A DNA stretch of 64,000 bases from positions 59,148,001 to 59,212,000 of the forward strand of contig OZ024742.1 in the NCBI GenBank assembly GCA_964016885.1, written 5' to 3'. Shown in pieces: positions 7,160-54,582 of this stretch; within the stretch, counting starts at the first letter, position 1, and every line of letters starts with the position of its first letter. The notes under the pieces are model-generated. The model ran no database searches, was not told the DNA's origin, and saw nothing but the letters and a program-made list of their open reading frames with translations. The stretch comes from Eledone cirrhosa. Its lineage: Eukaryota. The translations under genes were made by a program, and so were the position numbers.

Positions 7160-8087
7160 AACAAAGTCAATCTGTAAACGGAGAACTGGATATTTCAAAA
7201 AACGTTGCAACCGGAGAAAGACAGGAAGACGATACTTTGGTTCGTGGAAACGTTCGCTGGCAAAGAACGGGAAAAAACGAATATAATACGTCATTAATAG
7301 GAGCGGTGAAAAACAATTACGCGCAAAGACAGAACCACGTTTATGGTATAAAAGAGGTCGTAGACTAATGTTCTCTTAGGTTGTGCATAGAGACGTTCTC
7401 TGGCAATGAACGAAAAAACGAAGATAATAAGTCATATGTGGAGCGTGGAGAACAATAACACGCAAAGACAAAACCACGTAAATGGTATAGCAGAAGTTGT
7501 AGACTAAAATTCTAACTAGGAGACCAAATAAATCTCCGCTACAGAGTTAAGAACAAAGTAAATAAATACAATACAGAAGTAATAGAAACAAATAAATACA
7601 TACACGCAAACCGATACGTACATACACAAGCATACGCAAAACCATACCATAGGTATACAAAACCACGCACATATAAATATGTGTGTGTGTATGCTTGTGT
7701 ACAAATAAATAAATAATTATATAAACGTATATAAGTAAATAAATACGTATATAACAAGCGCACACACATACATACAAATAAATACACGAAAGTTCGGAGA
7801 CGTAAGTCAACTAAAACAAGAAGTACACATATACACACACCCACCATACGTACGAACCTGTATACTCCCGCAGACGCAAAACTCCGGTATACACATAGCC
7901 AAACCCTAAATACCAGAATATGTAAAAATTATACGTAATAACAGTCAAATATACGTACGAGAAGGTATACATACCTTCACAAAACATACGGGTAATATAT
8001 ACTTACCTATGCAAATGAGTAAAGGAATAAACAAAACATATTCTTAGCTCCCACATCAAGACGTAAAATATCCACGTATAGATCGTG

Positions 8088-8384
8088 CTATCCGTTAGGG
8101 TATAACGTGGGGCTGTAATACAGGAAAGTTTTGTGCAATTTATGTTTACAAGCCGAAATTGCCTCAGATTTTTTGTTTAAGATGTGGTCTGTGGCGTAGA
8201 GTATTTCCAGGGCCTCAGCGGCGCAGAGGTCACATGGTCTTTTATTTCCGTTATACGATCTAGCCCTAGCTAGGATCTCCCAGTGTAACTTATATTGGAT
8301 GTGGTTGTCTTTTAGACTCCAGATATAAGCTGAAAGTGACGTCATATTCCTTCTTAAAGGGTAACGAAAAGAATGGGTATGCAT
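8088..8384 (-). pseudogene. C-terminal half of PLE GIY-YIG endonuclease
   Basis: TSLSAYIWSLK...LHWEIL...SY...CDLCAAE...LNKKSE...CKH aligns by eye with the C-terminus of ORF 26676-27971. Confidence 0.85.
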
Positions 8385-8440
8385 TCTTTGCTTAAACTTT
8401 AATCTGTTATTTTAATAAATATATATATATATATATATAT

Positions 8441-17910: not shown

Positions 17911-18026
17911 AACACTTAACATTTAATATTCTACCATACTATTTCATTCTAATACCATTATAATTTTAAAGGATTGTAAATAAAACGAGTAAATCAGACA
18001 AAGTTGGAATTCTTTTTATTAATATA

Positions 18027-18202
18027 TTGGCAGTATCGGTGGAGGGTCGCACGCCATGCTTTCCAGCATAGTTACGTCCCTTTACGATCTGAGTTCAAAT
18101 CCCGCCGAGGTTGACTTTGCCTTTCATCCTTACGGGGTCGATAAAATAAAGTACCAGTAATGCACTGGGTAATTGCTGGCCTTGTGCCTGAAGTAGAAAC
18201 AA

Positions 18203-18741: not shown

Positions 18742-19493
18742 ATTATATTATTAATACAATAACAGAGATAGTTTAAAGCTAATCTCTGACTGGTAACCAT
18801 CTCACTCAACAAACATTAGGTTATATTTTAATATAAACCCAATTTAAGTGTTTGGGGTGCTAACAATATGTATTATGTGGAAAAGCCAGTTGTATTATTT
18901 TATGAGATATAATTAAAGTTAAAATATATCTCTCTTTCCAAACAATTGTTTCATTATAAGTTTTCTACAAATTCGGAGAATGTTTCCAGTTTATGTAGAA
19001 GCCTAATATACATTCATGTAAGAATATATTTAGGTGGGCGCTTATAAATCATCAGTGGAAGCCCATTAAACCTTGATATAAGAAAAACATTTCTTACCAC
19101 AGTTAAAAATCGTGTCTGTTAAGTTGCTCCCTCCCGCATCGAATGACCGGCAAATTTGAAATTCCAGCAGTTTTTGACTGAGGAAGTATTATAGCGTCAC
19201 TAAGCGGGAAGGGGAGACAACTACGATCCACGAAAGGAGGAAAAAAAAAAATATACACGCGGGTTAATCAGTTTTTTCGAAAACATTATCAATCCAACGT
19301 GTTAAGAACTCAATTGAAATTAAAAGAATAAATATATGCGTGTATGAATTACAGATGTAATATATATATATATATATATGGGTTTATCGAACATTTATTA
19401 TAATGCTCGGTGTGTTTGTAAACAAACATCCCGAATTAAGCCGTACAGTGTTTAGCAACCATCGTTGCCCTTTTGTTCAACACTGACAAAGGA

Positions 19494-19536
19494 ACGATGT
19501 ACTAGTTTCAAGCTTACTAGCTATCGTCAGCATCGT
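19494..19536 (-). ncRNA. Minimal type I hammerhead, canonical core
   Basis: acgatg CTGACGA t agct agta agct t GAAA ctag TA catcgt. Confidence 0.9.
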
Positions 19537-20125
19537 ATACCATCCTGCCAGATGATTGAACGTCTGAAAGTATATACTTTCCTTATGCATATTAACGGCT
19601 GAGCAGCCTAATTTGCATATCGAGTGAGTTAGTCGGCCGGGCGCACCGAAAACGATAAATGGAAAAATGAAACGAAATTTCATTTCTCACTCTTAGTACG
19701 GCTGTTACTTAAATATAAGTATGTATACGTACATATATATGTGTATACAGACGTACAGTAGTATGTACATATATACATACATGCACACATATATATATAT
19801 GTACGTATGGGTTTATTTACAAACAAACCGAGCATTATAATAAATGTTCGATAAACCCATACGTACATATATATATGTGTGCATGTATGTATATATATAC
19901 ATACTACTGTACGTCTGTATACATTTATGTACGTATACATACTTATATTTAAGTAACAGCCGTACTATGAGTGAGAAATGAAATTTCGTTTCATTTTTTC
20001 CATTTATCGTTTCCGGTGCGCCCGGCCGACTAACTCACTCGATATGCAAATTAGGCTGCTCAGCCGTTAATATGCATAAGGAAAGTATATACTTTCAGAC
20101 GTTCAATCATATGGCAGGAAGGTAT

Positions 20126-20168
20126 ACGATGCTGACGATAGCTAAAAAGCTTGAAACTAGTATATCGT
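20126..20168 (+). ncRNA. Minimal type I hammerhead, canonical core
   Basis: acgatg CTGACGA t agct aaaa agct t GAAA ctag TA tatcgt. Confidence 0.85.
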
Positions 20169-20442
20169 TCCTTTGTCAGTGTTGAACAAAGGGCAACGAT
20201 GGTTGCTAAACACTGTACGGCTTAATCCTGGCATTATAATAAATGTTCGATAAACCCATACGTACATATATATATGTGTGCATGTATGTATATATATACA
20301 TACTACTGTACGTCTGTATACATATATGTATGTACGTATACATACTTATATTTAAGTAACAGCCGTACTACGAGTGAGAAATGAAATTTCGTTTCATATT
20401 TTTCCATATATATACATACATATATATATATATAAATATATA

Positions 20443-20531
<89 letters not shown>

Positions 20532-22705: not shown

Positions 22706-22725
22706 ATGTGTGTATATTATTACAC

Positions 22726-23107
22726 GGTGGTTGGCAGTATCGGTAGAGAGTCAGACGCCATGCTTTGCAGTACAGAGTTTCGGCCCTTTACTGTCTGAGC
22801 TCAAATCCCGCCTAGGTTAACTTTGCTTTTCATCCTTACGGGGTCGATAAAATAAAGTACCAGTAATGTACTGGGAAATTGCTGGCCTTGTGCCAAAAAG
22901 TAGAAACAATTATTACACGGTGGATTGGCAGTATCGGTAGAGGGTCGGACGCCATGCTTTGCAGTACAGAGTTTCGGCCCTTTACTGTCTTAGCTCAAAT
23001 CCCGCTGAGGTTAACTTTGCGTTTCATCCTTACGGGGTCGGTAAAATAAAATACCAGTAATGCACTGGTATAATTGTTGGCCCTGTGCCAAAAGTAGAAA
23101 CAATTAT
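22726..23107 (+). mobile_element. Two tandem tRNA-derived SINE copies
   Basis: ~190-bp unit repeated head to tail with A/B boxes. Confidence 0.85.
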
Positions 23108-23437
23108 TGCATACATTATTATGCAGATATTACTTAAACGAAGTGAGATTTCACGCGTGTGGGACAGGAGGTAGCATATATATGTGACTGTGGAGCGAGA
23201 GACGGAGAGAAAGAGAGAATGAGAAAAAGAAAGAGAGAGAGATTGGGAAAAGTGAACATGCTTAATGGAATTTAATTTGACGCCTTACATTTCTATGTTC
23301 AATTCCCGCTGGGGGCTTATTCTATGCTCAATCCCTCATACCCTATAGCTAACATAATTAATGTTATTTTACTGACTCCAGTGTGATATCCCCTACAAAA
23401 TTGACTTGGGTTATTAACACATGTATATATATATATG

Positions 23438-25007: not shown

Positions 25008-25011
<4 letters not shown>

Positions 25012-25123
25012 GAAGGAATTGTGGTAAGGAACCAGATGGACCATAACGCACCAAAGTACTCAATACTTGAGTCCAGAAATAGCCGTCGAAACGGCTTGAG
25101 CTCTGCCGTCGGGGTCTTACTTA
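25008..25123. mobile_element. Family A inverted insert next to the large PLE
   Basis: Family A 3' end on minus joined to TGAgtccagaaatagccgtcGAAACggcttgagctctgccGTCggggtc on plus. Confidence 0.7.
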
Positions 25124-25140
25124 TATATATATATATATAT

Positions 25141-25916
25141 ATATGAAATATAAGAATCAAAGAACTGTTCAAAACATTATTGTGCTTACAGCTGTTTCCT
25201 CCAAACCGAGGTTTGGATTCTTCGGAGCAATTTATTAATGCATGGACAGTTATATGACCTCCTTTTCAGCCGAGAGACATACCAATACATATTCAAACAT
25301 TGATACATATTCAAACATTGTGGGTCAACATTCATTACAAAATTTAGAGTGGCAGTACACACTTCGAGATTACATTTATATTAATAGGTACAATCAAAAA
25401 TCAAAGATATAGGTTAAAGTACAACATGAAGATAAGTGGTTATATAGTGCAAATGTTATATGTGTGGCACGCATGTGCGTCTTGTTTATATAGTGTGGCA
25501 GAGAGATATATGTGTGGTAGAGGCACTTAGGTAGGTAAATAAGAGTGTTAGGTTGGTAGATCTGGTGGCAAAGTCTTTATATGATTGATGTAGTCTGTGT
25601 GTGGAGAAATATTATAAGCATTAAAGATAGTGCAAGCATTAAAAGTGTTATAAGTATTGGAGAAGCACAACGCAGGGATGTCAAGTAATTCATGTACTTC
25701 GGCATTTTCATGGTCAAGGGAGTGTATATTTCGATTATATGCCTTTCACATAATCCACGACAATCCAGTTAGAGATCGTAGTCTGGTGCTCTTTAGTTCG
25801 ATACAGGAGGTTGTTACGTTTCGAGAGACGCCATTGAATACCGGAAGTGTGTGTGTGGCTAAGGGGAGTTAATGCATGCGGGGAGGTAACTCTGGGGTTT
25901 CTATATCTAGCCATTA
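25141..25916 (-). repeat. 3' pseudo-LTR
   Basis: Identical by eye to 29347-30115 except a 7-bp indel. Confidence 0.9.
25183..25229 (-). ncRNA. pLTR type I hammerhead, U4C core
   Basis: tgct CCGAAGA a tccaaacc tc ggtttgga g GAAA cagctg TA agca. Confidence 0.85.
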
Positions 25917-26675
25917 AAATGTGTCCCAATATGGACCCTAAATTCTATGGTGAGGTGCACCTTCCAAGAGAGACTTTTAAAGCATGAAGTGTACTAACTA
26001 TAGAGTAGTTTAACTAAATTATGCTGAAGGTGATCATATTATTATTAAGGTGGATTAACCCATCTTAAGGTGCTACAAATGGAAATTATAGATGATGAGC
26101 GAGGATTCTAAATTAATGATCTCTGTGGTTGTAGTCTGCTCATATGACCAGGCGCGGTGATTGCAGGATTGCTTCAGGACCCAATGATCTCTGGTAAGAT
26201 CTGGGTCATCGCTTGCTACATTGGATGTCGAAAGATAATCGTCCCCAGGCAGGCCAAAAGGTCAATCCGCAGTCCTCGCGACCCCTCTCTGACCATCAGA
26301 TCATCCATATACGTACAACCCGCACGGCAGTTGCATTGCATTCACTCACTGCGCTCAGCAGCCCGGTCCTACTGGTCAACAGCGCTACTCGATTAAATCA
26401 TTTTACATCTGTCTAAGGAAGGTGTTTCCTCTGCCCAACACCATCCAACCGATCAATTCATGCTCAAATTACCCTTAGAGCGGTGTAGTGCCGTCCAGGT
26501 GGGTGGATGTTGTCACACCTGCCGTAGAGGTATAAATGGGTATTTTCCCTGCGAAGGGTTCCAGAGGGATGTCGTTGTTTGTGTTATAATGGATCAGCTA
26601 GTGTTGGGTATGTAGTATAGGGTGTGTCTCTGGTGTTTGATGCTAGATGTGGTGTTAGGTTCCAGTCCGACATTG

Positions 26676-27971
26676 CTATATATAGGGCTTAAAGTTTTGG
26701 AAGGAATGTCTGAGGCGGTGCTGGCAAGTTGCAAACACCTCAGATTTTTTGTTAAGTAGGTTACGGTTGGAGAAGATAATATTGTGTGTCTCTAGTATAC
26801 AGAGGTTACAGAATTTATTAGGTGGTTTGTACGAGGTCGCGCTGCCTATCACTTCCCATTTGAGTGTGTATGGTTTATTTTTAGATTTTAGATAGTGTAT
26901 GTAGCTAGAAAGTGAGGTGGAGTTGGCTAGGCTGTGCTTTTTGAACGAGTGGATGTGCGAGTTATATCTAATTTTGAAGCAGTTAGAAGTGGAGCCTACA
27001 TAGGTTTCTGAAGAGTTATTAGTCGTGACTGTGCATGAGTATATGACATCCTTGGTTAGGCATTTTTTATCTAAAGGGCAGGTTCTATTAGCTCTACAGT
27101 TACACTTATTCTGTGCGTTAGTCCGCTGGTTATAATGCAATGCGGAAGTCTGTGTGGTGGATATAGGATTTTGGGTGTTCAGGTTGACAACCCTGGTGTT
27201 ATTACTTATACTAGTGTTATTTCTATTGTTACTGCCGTTGCTATTGTTGCTTGCTACAGTGGTATTTAGAGGGTTTGCATCCCGTTGTGATTTTGTTTGT
27301 TGGAAGTAAGAACTAATTTTACTATTATTGCTGCTAGCTATGTGGTATGCTAAGTTAGGCGTCGTAGAGTATGAGATTTTAATGGTGTTTTTGTTTAAGA
27401 GGTTGTGGTACTTGTGTCCTAGAGGGAAGTTTTTATCTAGTAGTGAGAAGAAAGCCCTAGGTATGTTGGTGGAGACATTTAGGTTGAAAGGAGGGTTGAA
27501 AAATGTATTATTTCTTCTTCTATTTTTGCTTTTAGTGTTTGGTGTGTTGCTTCCTCCTAAGGCCTCACAGTAGTTTCCATGGTAATGGTTACTTCCGGTG
27601 GCACCCTCCGCTTTGGTGTACTTGTGGTTGCTATTCCTATTATTAGATTTCCTCATGGACATGTTGTGCGAGATGATGTTGTAGCTATGTGTTTTCTTAG
27701 GTAGGAACTCTATTTCTATATTATGGCCGGAGCTAGCTAATGCTTGATTGTAATATTGTGAGTTTTTGCTAAATATGTTTGCGTCATAGGACAGACTAGA
27801 GATTCTATTGGACACCCCCTTAGAGATAGAGTTTAATATTGATCTAGGGTGATTAGACTTGGTATCTACGTAAATAAGTTTCTCATTAGGCTTATGGAAA
27901 GGTGTATATATTTTTGAGTCTAGGTATAGTGTGGCGTCTAGGAAGTTAACATTTTTAGTGTTTTTGTCCAT
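26676..27971 (-). CDS. PLE polyprotein, C-terminal part: RT thumb, Asn-rich linker, CxCx5C motif, GIY-YIG endonuclease
   Basis: VNFLD, YVDTKSNHP, FNPPF, CNCRANRTC, VIY...YVG...RYNSH, CNLCILE; in frame with the RT if one A of the A10 run at 28038-28047 is removed. Confidence 0.9.
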   Translation of the reverse strand: MDKNTKNVNFLDATLYLDSKIYTPFHKPNEKLIYVDTKSNHPRSILNSISKGVSNRISSLSYDANIFSKNSQYYNQALASSGHNIEIEFLPKKTHSYNIISHNMSMRKSNNRNSNHKYTKAEGATGSNHYHGNYCEALGGSNTPNTKSKNRRRNNTFFNPPFNLNVSTNIPRAFFSLLDKNFPLGHKYHNLLNKNTIKISYSTTPNLAYHIASSNNSKISSYFQQTKSQRDANPLNTTVASNNSNGSNNRNNTSISNNTRVVNLNTQNPISTTQTSALHYNQRTNAQNKCNCRANRTCPLDKKCLTKDVIYSCTVTTNNSSETYVGSTSNCFKIRYNSHIHSFKKHSLANSTSLSSYIHYLKSKNKPYTLKWEVIGSATSYKPPNKFCNLCILETHNIIFSNRNLLNKKSEVFATCQHRLRHSFQNFKPYI

Positions 27972-28017
27972 GGTGATACTAAGGTTAAAGTTTTTGAATG
28001 TCTTATGCAGTTGTTTT

Positions 28018-29139
28018 CTAGTTCTTTCTATATAAAATTTTTTTTTTATATTCTATGAGTAGAAGTGCATCATCGCGGTACAAACCACCGTTGAGGTAAG
28101 GGAGGTCTTTATGGATTTCATTGAGGAGGTATAGGCCGACCAAATCAGTGACCTGCGCCGAATCACTAGATCCCATGGTTATGTCGAAGTTGTTGTGCGT
28201 ATCCTTGCGTGTCCATAGTTGGTCCTCGAAGGTGATTATGGTTTTACGGGCCGCAAGGATGACATCAACCTGGGCTCTAGTCAGGTCGCTATTGGTCATG
28301 GCCATGATAAGTGCCTTATTTAATAGGATAGGGGAAATAGAGGTGTAGTATGAATTGATATCAAATTGAATAAATTTTTTGTTCTTATTATTCTTGATAT
28401 CCTTAAACCATTCAATTACTTCACCCGTATTTCCCCATTGTTTAAGGTGTATCTTGTGTTTAATTTGTGGGATGATTTTATCCAAAATCTTCTTGCTGAT
28501 AATACCAATGTCGGACTTGGAAGGGCAGATAAGTCTTATCGTGGGGTTGCTGATGAAGTTCTCCTTATGGTCCTTCAGAGAGAATCTAGGGGGGTTCGGA
28601 GTGAAAGGTTGTGTATGCCTCTGTAGTCCTAGTTTAGACACTATATTATAACCCTCTACATTAATATCTTCTAAGTTTTTCAAGGTGGTTTTTTTGTAGC
28701 TTTTATGTAGTTCATTATATATAAACTTTCTATAAGTAATATAATCTAGGCTGTATATGTTATTAGTTTTATCTGCGTGTACAATAATTTTATTACTAGT
28801 TTTGAATCCACTAATAGAAGTGTTAAGTTTGTTTAAGAAGGTGTTGCTTCTAATATGGTGCTTATTGTATTTAATGTTCTTAACTAGTTTAACTAGGTCA
28901 TTTTCAAAGGAGTTAAGTAGAGTGTTATGAGGGGGGCTTTTAAAGGTTTTAAAGCCGAAGGAGTCAAAATTGTTAGTATTATTCAAGTTGTTAGATTTGT
29001 TTCTATCATAATGGAATGTCCTCCATCTCACTCTATTGATAAATGAATTTACACTGTTGATCAGCAATTTCTCATATGTATTCCTGGATGGTATTGGTAT
29101 GTTCTTGGTTGACATGGGGAGTTGGTCTTTGATTAGCAT
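28018..29139 (-). CDS. PLE polyprotein, N-terminal part: reverse transcriptase
   Basis: ADKT, KDHK..P.IRLI, QFDINSYYTSI, TMGS, YRDD catalytic motif. Confidence 0.92.
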   Translation of the reverse strand: MLIKDQLPMSTKNIPIPSRNTYEKLLINSVNSFINRVRWRTFHYDRNKSNNLNNTNNFDSFGFKTFKSPPHNTLLNSFENDLVKLVKNIKYNKHHIRSNTFLNKLNTSISGFKTSNKIIVHADKTNNIYSLDYITYRKFIYNELHKSYKKTTLKNLEDINVEGYNIVSKLGLQRHTQPFTPNPPRFSLKDHKENFISNPTIRLICPSKSDIGIISKKILDKIIPQIKHKIHLKQWGNTGEVIEWFKDIKNNKNKKFIQFDINSYYTSISPILLNKALIMAMTNSDLTRAQVDVILAARKTIITFEDQLWTRKDTHNNFDITMGSSDSAQVTDLVGLYLLNEIHKDLPYLNGGLYRDDALLLIEYKKKILYRKN

Positions 29140-29346
29140 ATTGGCAATATTATATGTCAGCTCAACGATATGGAGCAGTTAATAGTATTAGTTATACTAT
29201 TTATGGTTATGTAAACACAAAACCTTAAGCAGTTGTAAGTATTTTACACACACCCTAAATAGTGGTAGGCAGTAATGTATTACTACCTTATTACCAGTAA
29301 GTTAAGTAGCTCAATGTAAAAACATCAGATGATTTACAGAGCAGTT

Positions 29347-30115
29347 ATATGAAATATAAGAATCAAAGAACTGTTCAAAACATTATTGTGCTTACAGCTG
29401 TTTCCTCCAAACCGAGGTTTGGATTCTTCGGAGCAATTTATTAATGCATGGACAGTTATATGACCTCCTTTTCAGCCGAGAGACATACCAATACATATTC
29501 AAACATTGATACATATTCAAACATTGTGGGTCAACATTCATTACAAAATTTAGAGTGGCAGTACACACTTCGAGATTACATTTATATTAATAGGTACAAT
29601 CAAAAATCAAAGATATAGTACAACATGAAGATAAGTGGTTATATAGTGCAAATGTTATATGTGTGGCACGCATGTGCGTCTTGTTTATATAGTGTGGCAG
29701 AGAGATATATGTGTGGTAGAGGCACTTAGGTAGGTAAATAAGAGTGTTAGGTTGGTAGATCTGGTGGCAAAGTCTTTATATGATTGATGTAGTCTGTGTG
29801 TGGAGAAATATTATAAGCATTAAAGATAGTGCAAGCATTAAAAGTGTTATAAGTATTGGAGAAGCACAACGCAGGGATGTCAAGTAATTCATGTACTTCG
29901 GCATTTTCATGGTCAAGGGAGTGTATATTTCGATTATATGCCTTTCACATAATCCACGACAATCCAGTTAGAGATCGTAGTCTGGTGCTCTTTAGTTCGA
30001 TACAGGAGGTTGTTACGTTTCGAGAGACGCCATTGAATACCGGAAGTGTGTGTGTGGCTAAGGGGAGTTAATGCATGCGGGGAGGTAACTCTGGGGTTTC
30101 TATATCTAGCCATTA
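29347..30115 (-). repeat. 5' pseudo-LTR
   Basis: Direct repeat of 25141-25916. Confidence 0.9.
29389..29435 (-). ncRNA. pLTR type I hammerhead, U4C core (second copy)
   Basis: Identical to 25183-25229, 4206 bp away. Confidence 0.85.
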
Positions 30116-30287
30116 TATTTCATATAACTGCTCTGTAAATCATCTGATGTTTTTACATTGAGCTACTTAACTTACTGGTAATAAGGTAGTAATACATTAC
30201 TGCCTACCACTATTTAGGGTGTGTGTAAAATACTTACAACTGCTTAAGGTTTTGTGTTTACATAACCATAAATAGTATAACTAATAC

Positions 30288-30345
<58 letters not shown>

Positions 30346-46843: not shown

Positions 46844-46878
<35 letters not shown>

Positions 46879-46949
46879 AAAATGTATGACCCCGACGGCA
46901 GAGCTCAAGCCGTTTCGACGGCTATTTATATATATGCGCAGGCGTCATC

Positions 46950-54394: not shown

Positions 54395-54579
54395 GGAACA
54401 AGTAAGACCCCAACGGCTGAGCTCAAGCCGTTTCGACGGCTAAGTCCAGAATTAGCCGTCGAAACGGCTTGAGCTCAGCCGTAGGGGTCTTACTTGTTCC
54501 TATTACCCACTCTACTACCCTAAGTATTGAGTACTTTGGGGCGTTATGGTCCACTTGGTTCCTTACCACATTTCCTTCG

Positions 54580-54582
<3 letters not shown>
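54393..54582 (+). mobile_element. Family A fold-back insert (best preserved)
   Basis: ~50-bp arms around gtccagaa; GAAAC ggct tgagctc agcc GTA ggggtc. Confidence 0.75.

What the first reader, a model, noticed from the sequence alone, without database searches (positions are those of the whole stretch)
19377..20407. Retrozyme-like ~430-nt monomer inserted as an inverted monomer plus a 1.4-mer
Seen: a non-coding unit with one canonical hammerhead. Both arms run past unit length, and they differ by several substitutions and a ~25-nt deletion. Established: metazoan non-LTR retrozymes are small hammerhead-bearing tandem units that yield circular RNAs. Inference: reverse transcription around a circular or multimeric RNA by a PLE RT primed from both strands of a (TA)n cut. 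I do not know of this family being described, but have not searched.
Basis: partly seen in the sequence, partly recalled or inferred. Interest (0 to 1): 0.82.

Follow-up and report, generated by a model that had tools for sequence, protein, structure and literature searches.

The report
Ribozyme retroelement with Penelope insertion footprint
This is one aged copy of a roughly 13,000-copy family of 430-base non-coding repeats carrying a hammerhead ribozyme motif, whose back-to-back insertions end at two fixed points exactly as a protein-coding Penelope-like retrotransposon in the same genome does, so that enzyme likely copies them, probably from a circular RNA.

Summary
Observation confirmed: a 1.03-unit inverted arm joined to a 1.44-unit arm of a 429-430-nt unit, between (TA)n runs. 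The hammerhead core pattern has 12,938 exact genome matches (control 0). Arms have variable 5' ends but fixed 3' ends at two sites ~57 nt apart (A, B). In back-to-back pairs the arms use different sites: 36 A/B, 1 A/A, 0 B/B of 51 pairs (14 with an unclassed end). A sister family (7,800 matches) and a young autonomous Hydra-clade Penelope-like element (PLE) obey the same rule, which is the published PLE 'tail on one end' footprint. Young two-armed arrays are identical in every monomer, one with a haplotype found nowhere else in the assembly, as rolling-circle reverse transcription predicts; some loci mix haplotypes, and the longest arrays grew at DNA level. The window's arm differences are age. 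No sequence homology to four Hydra families was found, so the partner is unidentified. Self-cleavage and circular RNA are untested (no RNA data). The class and the PLE hypothesis are published; this family and this footprint were not found in print. New member of a known kind, with unusually direct mechanistic evidence.

The parts
19377..19816 (-). Left arm, 1.03 units; its 3' end lies at unit position ~10, an exception to the usual site A (2 of 51 pairs are of this kind)
19816..20411 (+). Right arm, 1.44 units, from unit position ~394 to site B (~162); last templated base 20407-20411
19811..19816 (.). 5'-to-5' junction of the arms; 1 nt perfect, 6 nt imperfect microhomology
   Evidence: sequence
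19494..19536 (-). Type I hammerhead motif, left arm (core 19530-19524; predicted cleavage after GUA at 19500)
   Evidence: stem I covariation
20126..20168 (+). Type I hammerhead motif, right arm (core 20132-20138; predicted cleavage after 20162; first stem I pair changed to G.U)
19940..19955 (+). Site A hairpin, read through here; in other copies arms end in its loop
20352..20411 (+). 'Tail' between site A and site B, present on this end only
   Evidence: term from 10.1101/2021.04.23.441226
19958..20222 (+). Predicted long-range helix 19958-19965 with 20215-20222; the sister family keeps it through two double changes; RNAalifold on this family alone chose another pairing
20044..20051 (+). Octamer-like motif (also 19611-19618 on minus), kept in most of the sister family but changed in its youngest lineage; promoter role untested
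20226..20227 (+). 24-nt deletion in the second unit copy of the right arm
19360..19376 (.). (TA)n target remnant, left
20412..20526 (.). (TA)n target remnant, right
25136..30290 (-). Not part of the element: two-armed Hydra-clade PLE copy (RT plus GIY-YIG, frameshift near 28040), candidate type of mobiliser

Best explanation
The element is a non-coding retrozyme repeat that is likely copied in trans by a Penelope-like (probably Hydra-clade) reverse transcriptase-endonuclease, which would cut a (TA)n repeat and prime DNA synthesis from both strands at two fixed internal sites of the RNA, probably going round a circular monomer. Shown: the family, its copy number, two fixed 3' ends, their A/B pairing, TA flanks, and identical monomers in young arrays. 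Inferred: multimeric transcripts self-cleave through dimeric hammerheads and ligate to a ~430-nt circle; one protein-RNA complex places one DNA end at site A and the other at site B; each cDNA runs from part of a turn to many turns; the two cDNA ends join at short or self-complementary matches; later mutation, unequal crossover and probably array collapse give aged forms such as this 1.03 + 1.44 copy.
For: 12,938 core matches. 123 of 140 arms end at A or B; 134 of 178 3' ends but 16 of 52 free 5' ends abut TA repeats. Back-to-back pairs: 36 A/B, 1 A/A, 0 B/B, 14 with an unclassed end, of 51 (p = 5.5e-10); sister family 15 A/B of 17 pairs, 2 unclassed; autonomous Hydra element 10 A/B of 10 pairs with both ends in view, among 21 stretches (counted by eye). 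That element has the DKT and CxCx5C motifs and many intact 832-aa copies. PMC11167929 shows a PLE extending both strands from two internal sites that delimit the tail. Rolling circle: L233 (3.7x + 5.0x) has 1 variable column in 7 monomers, L234 11 singleton and 0 shared columns in 8; both L233 variants are in 9 of 9 copies, and 8 of 13 genome matches of the first lie there, the other five lacking that haplotype; a sister array has 18 identical monomers. Paired changes across subfamilies in stem I (A-U 46, G-U 25, U-G 65 of 145) and at long range.
Against: No homology to the flanks of four Hydra families; best match 23 nt at E = 1.8, so the partner is not identified and other PLE clades were not searched. 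Neighbouring monomers or arms sometimes differ by subfamily-diagnostic indels (L032, L036, L047, L088; first monomer of L257), and L031 has variants shared by non-adjacent monomers: a pure monomer circle does not give these. The partner arm was the strictly nearest sequence in only 3 of 27 loci. The youngest sister lineage is identical across 7 loci, so it cannot separate circle from a long linear master. PMC11167929 found uncleaved RNA the main substrate and no start-site difference between strands in vitro. 8 of 9 predicted Xenopus retrozymes did not cleave in vitro (10.64898/2026.07.22.740005). The window's own left arm does not end at A.
Confidence: 0.62

Rival explanations
1. Same PLE machinery and same two priming sites, but the template is a linear, uncleaved multimeric transcript of existing arrays; the hammerhead is incidental to copying.
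For: Mixed-haplotype neighbours; long genomic arrays exist (31-, 35- and 60-mers); 5' starts cluster at unit 384-405 (16 of 140, 7.2 expected), a possible transcription start; PMC11167929 in vitro result.
Against: Long old arrays are mosaics, young two-armed arrays are star-like; no multimeric source for the L233 haplotype in the assembly; repeated truncation would shorten arrays unless something regenerates them (inference).
Confidence: 0.27
2. The copies are solo or tandem pseudo-LTR remnants of an autonomous PLE, not an independent element.
For: Identical architecture to the Hydra PLE; a preprint finds retrozymes homologous to PLE termini in Xenopus.
Against: No shared adjoining 5' flank among 52 free 5' ends except one duplicated locus; PLE hits in flanks are nested or opposite in sense; arrays are pure head-to-tail units with own subfamilies and a paralogous family.
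Confidence: 0.06
3. A satellite spread by DNA-level mechanisms, with inversions by fold-back or recombination.
For: L034 (ABAB), and the 31-, 35- and 60-mer arrays show unequal-crossover mosaics.
Against: Dispersed copies with fixed 3' and variable 5' ends, TA flanks, A/B pairing and mostly non-palindromic junctions.
Confidence: 0.05

Closest known systems
Metazoan non-LTR retrozymes (coral, mussel, axolotl; PMC7229834: parts 2-3, discussion and passages read; supplement unreadable)
   Same: Short low-GC tandem units, one type I hammerhead each, self-paired fold; U.U at the base of stem II as in axolotl HHR_Amex2 and a palindromic helix III as in HHR_Amex1
   Different: The words 'inverted' and 'microsatellite' do not occur in that main text; here two-armed insertions and two fixed priming sites are counted; circles are not shown here
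Retrozymes as non-autonomous PLE derivatives (bioRxiv 10.64898/2026.07.22.740005, parts 1-3 of 5 read)
   Same: Same conclusion on dependence on PLEs
   Different: Their evidence is co-occurrence and pLTR homology, mainly in vertebrates; here it is the insertion footprint, and no pLTR homology was found
Hydra-clade PLEs (10.1101/2021.04.23.441226, passages)
   Same: (TA)n target, partial tandems, adjacent inverted truncated copy, tail on one end, hammerhead
   Different: No ORF; unit 430 nt against ~4.2 kb; tail ~57 nt against 169 nt in the window's Hydra family and 30-40 bp in the paper
Anolis Poseidon PLE in vitro (PMC11167929, parts 1-2 of 4 read)
   Same: Two internal start sites delimiting the tail; both strands extended; AT-rich target
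   Different: In vitro no strand bias in start site; here the two arms of one insertion almost never use the same site
Newt satellite 2 (only via passages in PMC2220036 and PMC7229834; primary paper not held)
   Same: Hammerhead repeat with palindromic helix III; an internal snRNA-type promoter is reported there, and an octamer-like motif lies here
   Different: Promoter untested here; octamer-as-promoter-element is recalled

Membership tests
Metazoan non-LTR retrozyme | Type I hammerhead motif in each unit | tested here: met
   no Rfam gathering hit
Metazoan non-LTR retrozyme | Units of 150-450 bp in tandem, dimers to multimers | tested here: met
   429-430 nt; arrays to 60 units
Metazoan non-LTR retrozyme | Non-coding, low GC | tested here: met
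   no ORF of 120 aa or more; core 133 of 324 G+C; PBS/PPT not searched
Metazoan non-LTR retrozyme | Stable self-paired RNA fold | tested here: met
   z -7.2 and -6.9; opposite strand -4.3; covariation; prediction only
Metazoan non-LTR retrozyme | Two consecutive hammerhead units (the preprint's 'active' criterion), this locus | tested here: not met
   one hammerhead per arm in the window; met by other loci
Metazoan non-LTR retrozyme | Self-cleavage | not testable with these tools
   needs in vitro transcription
Metazoan non-LTR retrozyme | Expressed as linear and circular monomers | not testable with these tools
   no RNA holder listed
Metazoan non-LTR retrozyme | Target-site duplication longer than 4 bp when present | tested here: inconclusive
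   hidden in (TA)n; a ~9-bp duplication seen by eye at L045
PLE-mobilised element | Partial tandem with adjacent inverted 5'-truncated copy | tested here: met
   31 of 60 chromosome-order loci two-armed
PLE-mobilised element | Tail on one end only | tested here: met
   36 of 37 fully classed pairs
PLE-mobilised element | (TA)n target as in Hydra/Naiad | tested here: met
   134 of 178 3' ends
Derivative of a named autonomous PLE | Sequence homology to its pseudo-LTR | tested here: not met
   four Hydra families, best E 1.8; other clades not tested
Autonomous PLE | RT plus GIY-YIG ORF joined to the unit | tested here: not met

The most novel reading that the evidence does not exclude
The genome records rolling-circle, double-primed reverse transcription of a circular RNA by a Hydra-clade PLE: one complex primes the two DNA strands at two different fixed sites on the same circle, recognising a structure rather than shared sequence, giving mirror arrays of up to 25 identical monomers. 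This would tie animal retrozyme circles to their copying enzyme and explain PLE tandem/inverted architecture in general.
Probability: 0.45. Interest if true: 0.72.

Novelty: new member of a known kind. Interest (0 to 1): 0.52.

Why it matters
Which enzyme copies animal retrozymes, and whether the circle is the template, are stated hypotheses in PMC7229834 and PMC4209133. Here a 430-nt RNA with mapped priming sites, a sister family with matching structure and a young PLE with intact ORFs sit in one genome, which makes both questions testable in one in vitro system. The A/B rule constrains how PLEs build inverted insertions. About 20,000 hammerhead copies in two families also make this a notable repeat class for this genome.

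Tried and rejected
RNA evidence: no RNA holder listed; contigs of four runs of unrecorded kind were laid and say nothing on expression, ends or circles. Rfam: no hit. Pfam did not name the PLE domains (GIY-YIG E 0.19). Earlier scan notes: none. L034's ABAB pattern first looked like a circular dimer, but fits unequal crossover. A variant taken as private to L031 no longer separated it from L233, L234 and L238 in the larger set and was dropped. The C21 60-mer was tested as source of the L233 haplotype and rejected: the two variants lie in adjacent monomers 17-21 differences away. A-to-I editing signature not supported: A>G 5 against T>C 3, and 9 against 6. No pile-up of 5' ends at the cleavage site (5 of 140, 5.5 expected), but the sample was chosen on hammerhead-bearing copies. 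The dimer cofold did not give the double-hammerhead fold. Fold-back copying of one arm does not fit L031. Literature: 7 searches found no cephalopod retrozyme and no report of this footprint for a retrozyme; subscription journals and the supplements of PMC7229834 and of the preprints were not seen and may bear on this.

Full report
Observation. The region holds a 429-nt unit as a minus-strand arm (19377-19816) joined 5'-to-5' to a plus-strand arm (19816 to about 20411) between (TA)n runs. The arms differ by a 24-nt deletion, small indels and about 11 substitutions. Each carries a type I hammerhead motif: conserved core, 6-bp stem I, U.U then a 4-bp stem II, and a palindromic helix III that does not pair in a monomer fold. 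PMC4209133 (passages) describes such short palindromic helices as the usual metazoan form that works as a dimer. Rfam found nothing at gathering score. The unit folds far better than shuffles, also without its TA-rich part. The host looks like an octopod from its repeat landscape; that is recalled and was not tested.

Family. The core pattern has 12,938 exact matches; the best 40 candidates scored gave mostly 95-97% identity. I mapped arms in 89 loci (29 best hits, 60 in chromosome order) and 19 further loci chosen for several hits of a young subfamily. Several subfamilies exist, and the arms of a locus share one in most cases. Stem I keeps its pair through A-U, G-U and U-G (142 of 145 fall in these or one U-U class: 46, 25, 65, and 5 U-U); 11 of 83 predicted pairs show a double change. 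These are few events, counted on related sequences. A paralogous 466-470-nt family, 64% identical over 253 nt, has 7,800 exact core matches and the same predicted layout.

Footprint. Of 140 arms, 65 end at site A (unit ~103-106, a hairpin loop) and 58 at site B (~162); 134 of 178 3' ends abut TA repeats against 16 of 52 free 5' ends. 5' ends vary. In back-to-back pairs the arms use different sites: 36 A/B, 1 A/A, 0 B/B, and 14 with one unclassed end, of 51 after dropping overlapping junctions and one duplicate. The sister family gives 15 A/B of 17 pairs in 28 stretches and 3 of 4 more. A PLE 5 kb away in the window has the DKT and CxCx5C motifs of the Hydra clade and many intact 832-aa copies among the 150 scored; it gives 10 A/B of 10 pairs with both ends in view. 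This is the 'tail usually on one end' of 10.1101/2021.04.23.441226 and the two internal start sites of PMC11167929. The window's locus is one of two B/'position 10' exceptions; loss of the TA-rich segment or a minor start site would both explain it.

Partner. Flanks of four Hydra families show no homology to the unit; the best is 23 nt at site A, E = 1.8. No copy continues into a PLE ORF through a shared junction. So the element works like a non-autonomous PLE, but is not shown to derive from a named one.

Template. Young two-armed arrays are star-like: L233 has 1 variable column in 7 monomers, L234 11 singletons and none shared in 8; a sister array has 18 identical monomers. Both L233 variants are in 9 of 9 copies; the first has 13 genome matches, 8 at L233, and the other five loci lack the haplotype. 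This is what copying round one circular monomer predicts, though an unassembled or lost source array and assembly smoothing are not excluded. Against a pure circle: mixed-haplotype neighbours, shared variants in L031, and a sister lineage identical at 7 loci that cannot decide. The 31-, 35- and 60-unit arrays and L034 are mosaics grown at DNA level. Within-locus divergence runs from 0 to 6.5% in 50 loci, 3.25% here, and falls with array length (rho -0.42; confounded by how the young loci were chosen). The window's arm differences are therefore age.

Known versus new. The class, its circles in coral, mussel and axolotl, and the PLE and tandem-cDNA hypotheses are in PMC7229834; a 2026 preprint argues PLE origin from co-occurrence and homology. 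Seven searches found neither this family nor this footprint for a retrozyme; supplements were not readable.

Verdict. Real; new member of a known kind. PLE mobilisation about 0.9, circular template about 0.65-0.7 given that, Hydra clade as partner about 0.65. Cleavage and circles are untested. Interest 0.52.

Noticed in passing
window 25136-30290: Very young Hydra-clade PLE, two-armed with a 169-nt tail and a hammerhead-like motif in its pseudo-LTR; many intact 832-aa copies identical over the 187-aa query.
   Followed up: yes
L180:1275-1900; G000:C1:30.83 Mb; G000:C18:30.95 Mb: Sister retrozyme family (466-470 nt, 7,800 core matches) with G-C at the base of stem II; mirror arrays of 6.9+12.9 and 17.6+8.0 near-identical units.
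   Followed up: yes
L216:1160-1170: The youngest sister lineage (69 matches, 7 loci) carries three A>G changes inside the octamer-like motif; no family-wide editing signal.
   Followed up: partly
unit positions 285-289 (L034, L044, L047, L070): 5' ends recur at the stem I/core border (8 of 140, 1.6 expected; window chosen after seeing data); could be a stall at a stem I paired to another monomer.
   Followed up: no
window 25010-25125, 46850-46920, 54421-54580: A third TA-flanked family of short, often back-to-back copies with a hairpin; unit and possible ribozyme not worked out.
   Followed up: no
window 7250-8408: Fragment of a second, older Hydra family (713-aa ORF elsewhere); at least two more Hydra families occur in fetched flanks.
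   Followed up: partly
L045:60-2610: A retrozyme inserted into a Hydra ORF with a ~9-bp duplication, and part of the composite repeated in inverted form nearby.
   Followed up: partly
G000:C21:33.956-33.981 Mb: 60-unit satellite-like array of this family with higher-order periodicity.
   Followed up: partly
window 18026-18188, 22716-23108: Copies of a common short interspersed repeat, one pair in tandem.
   Followed up: no
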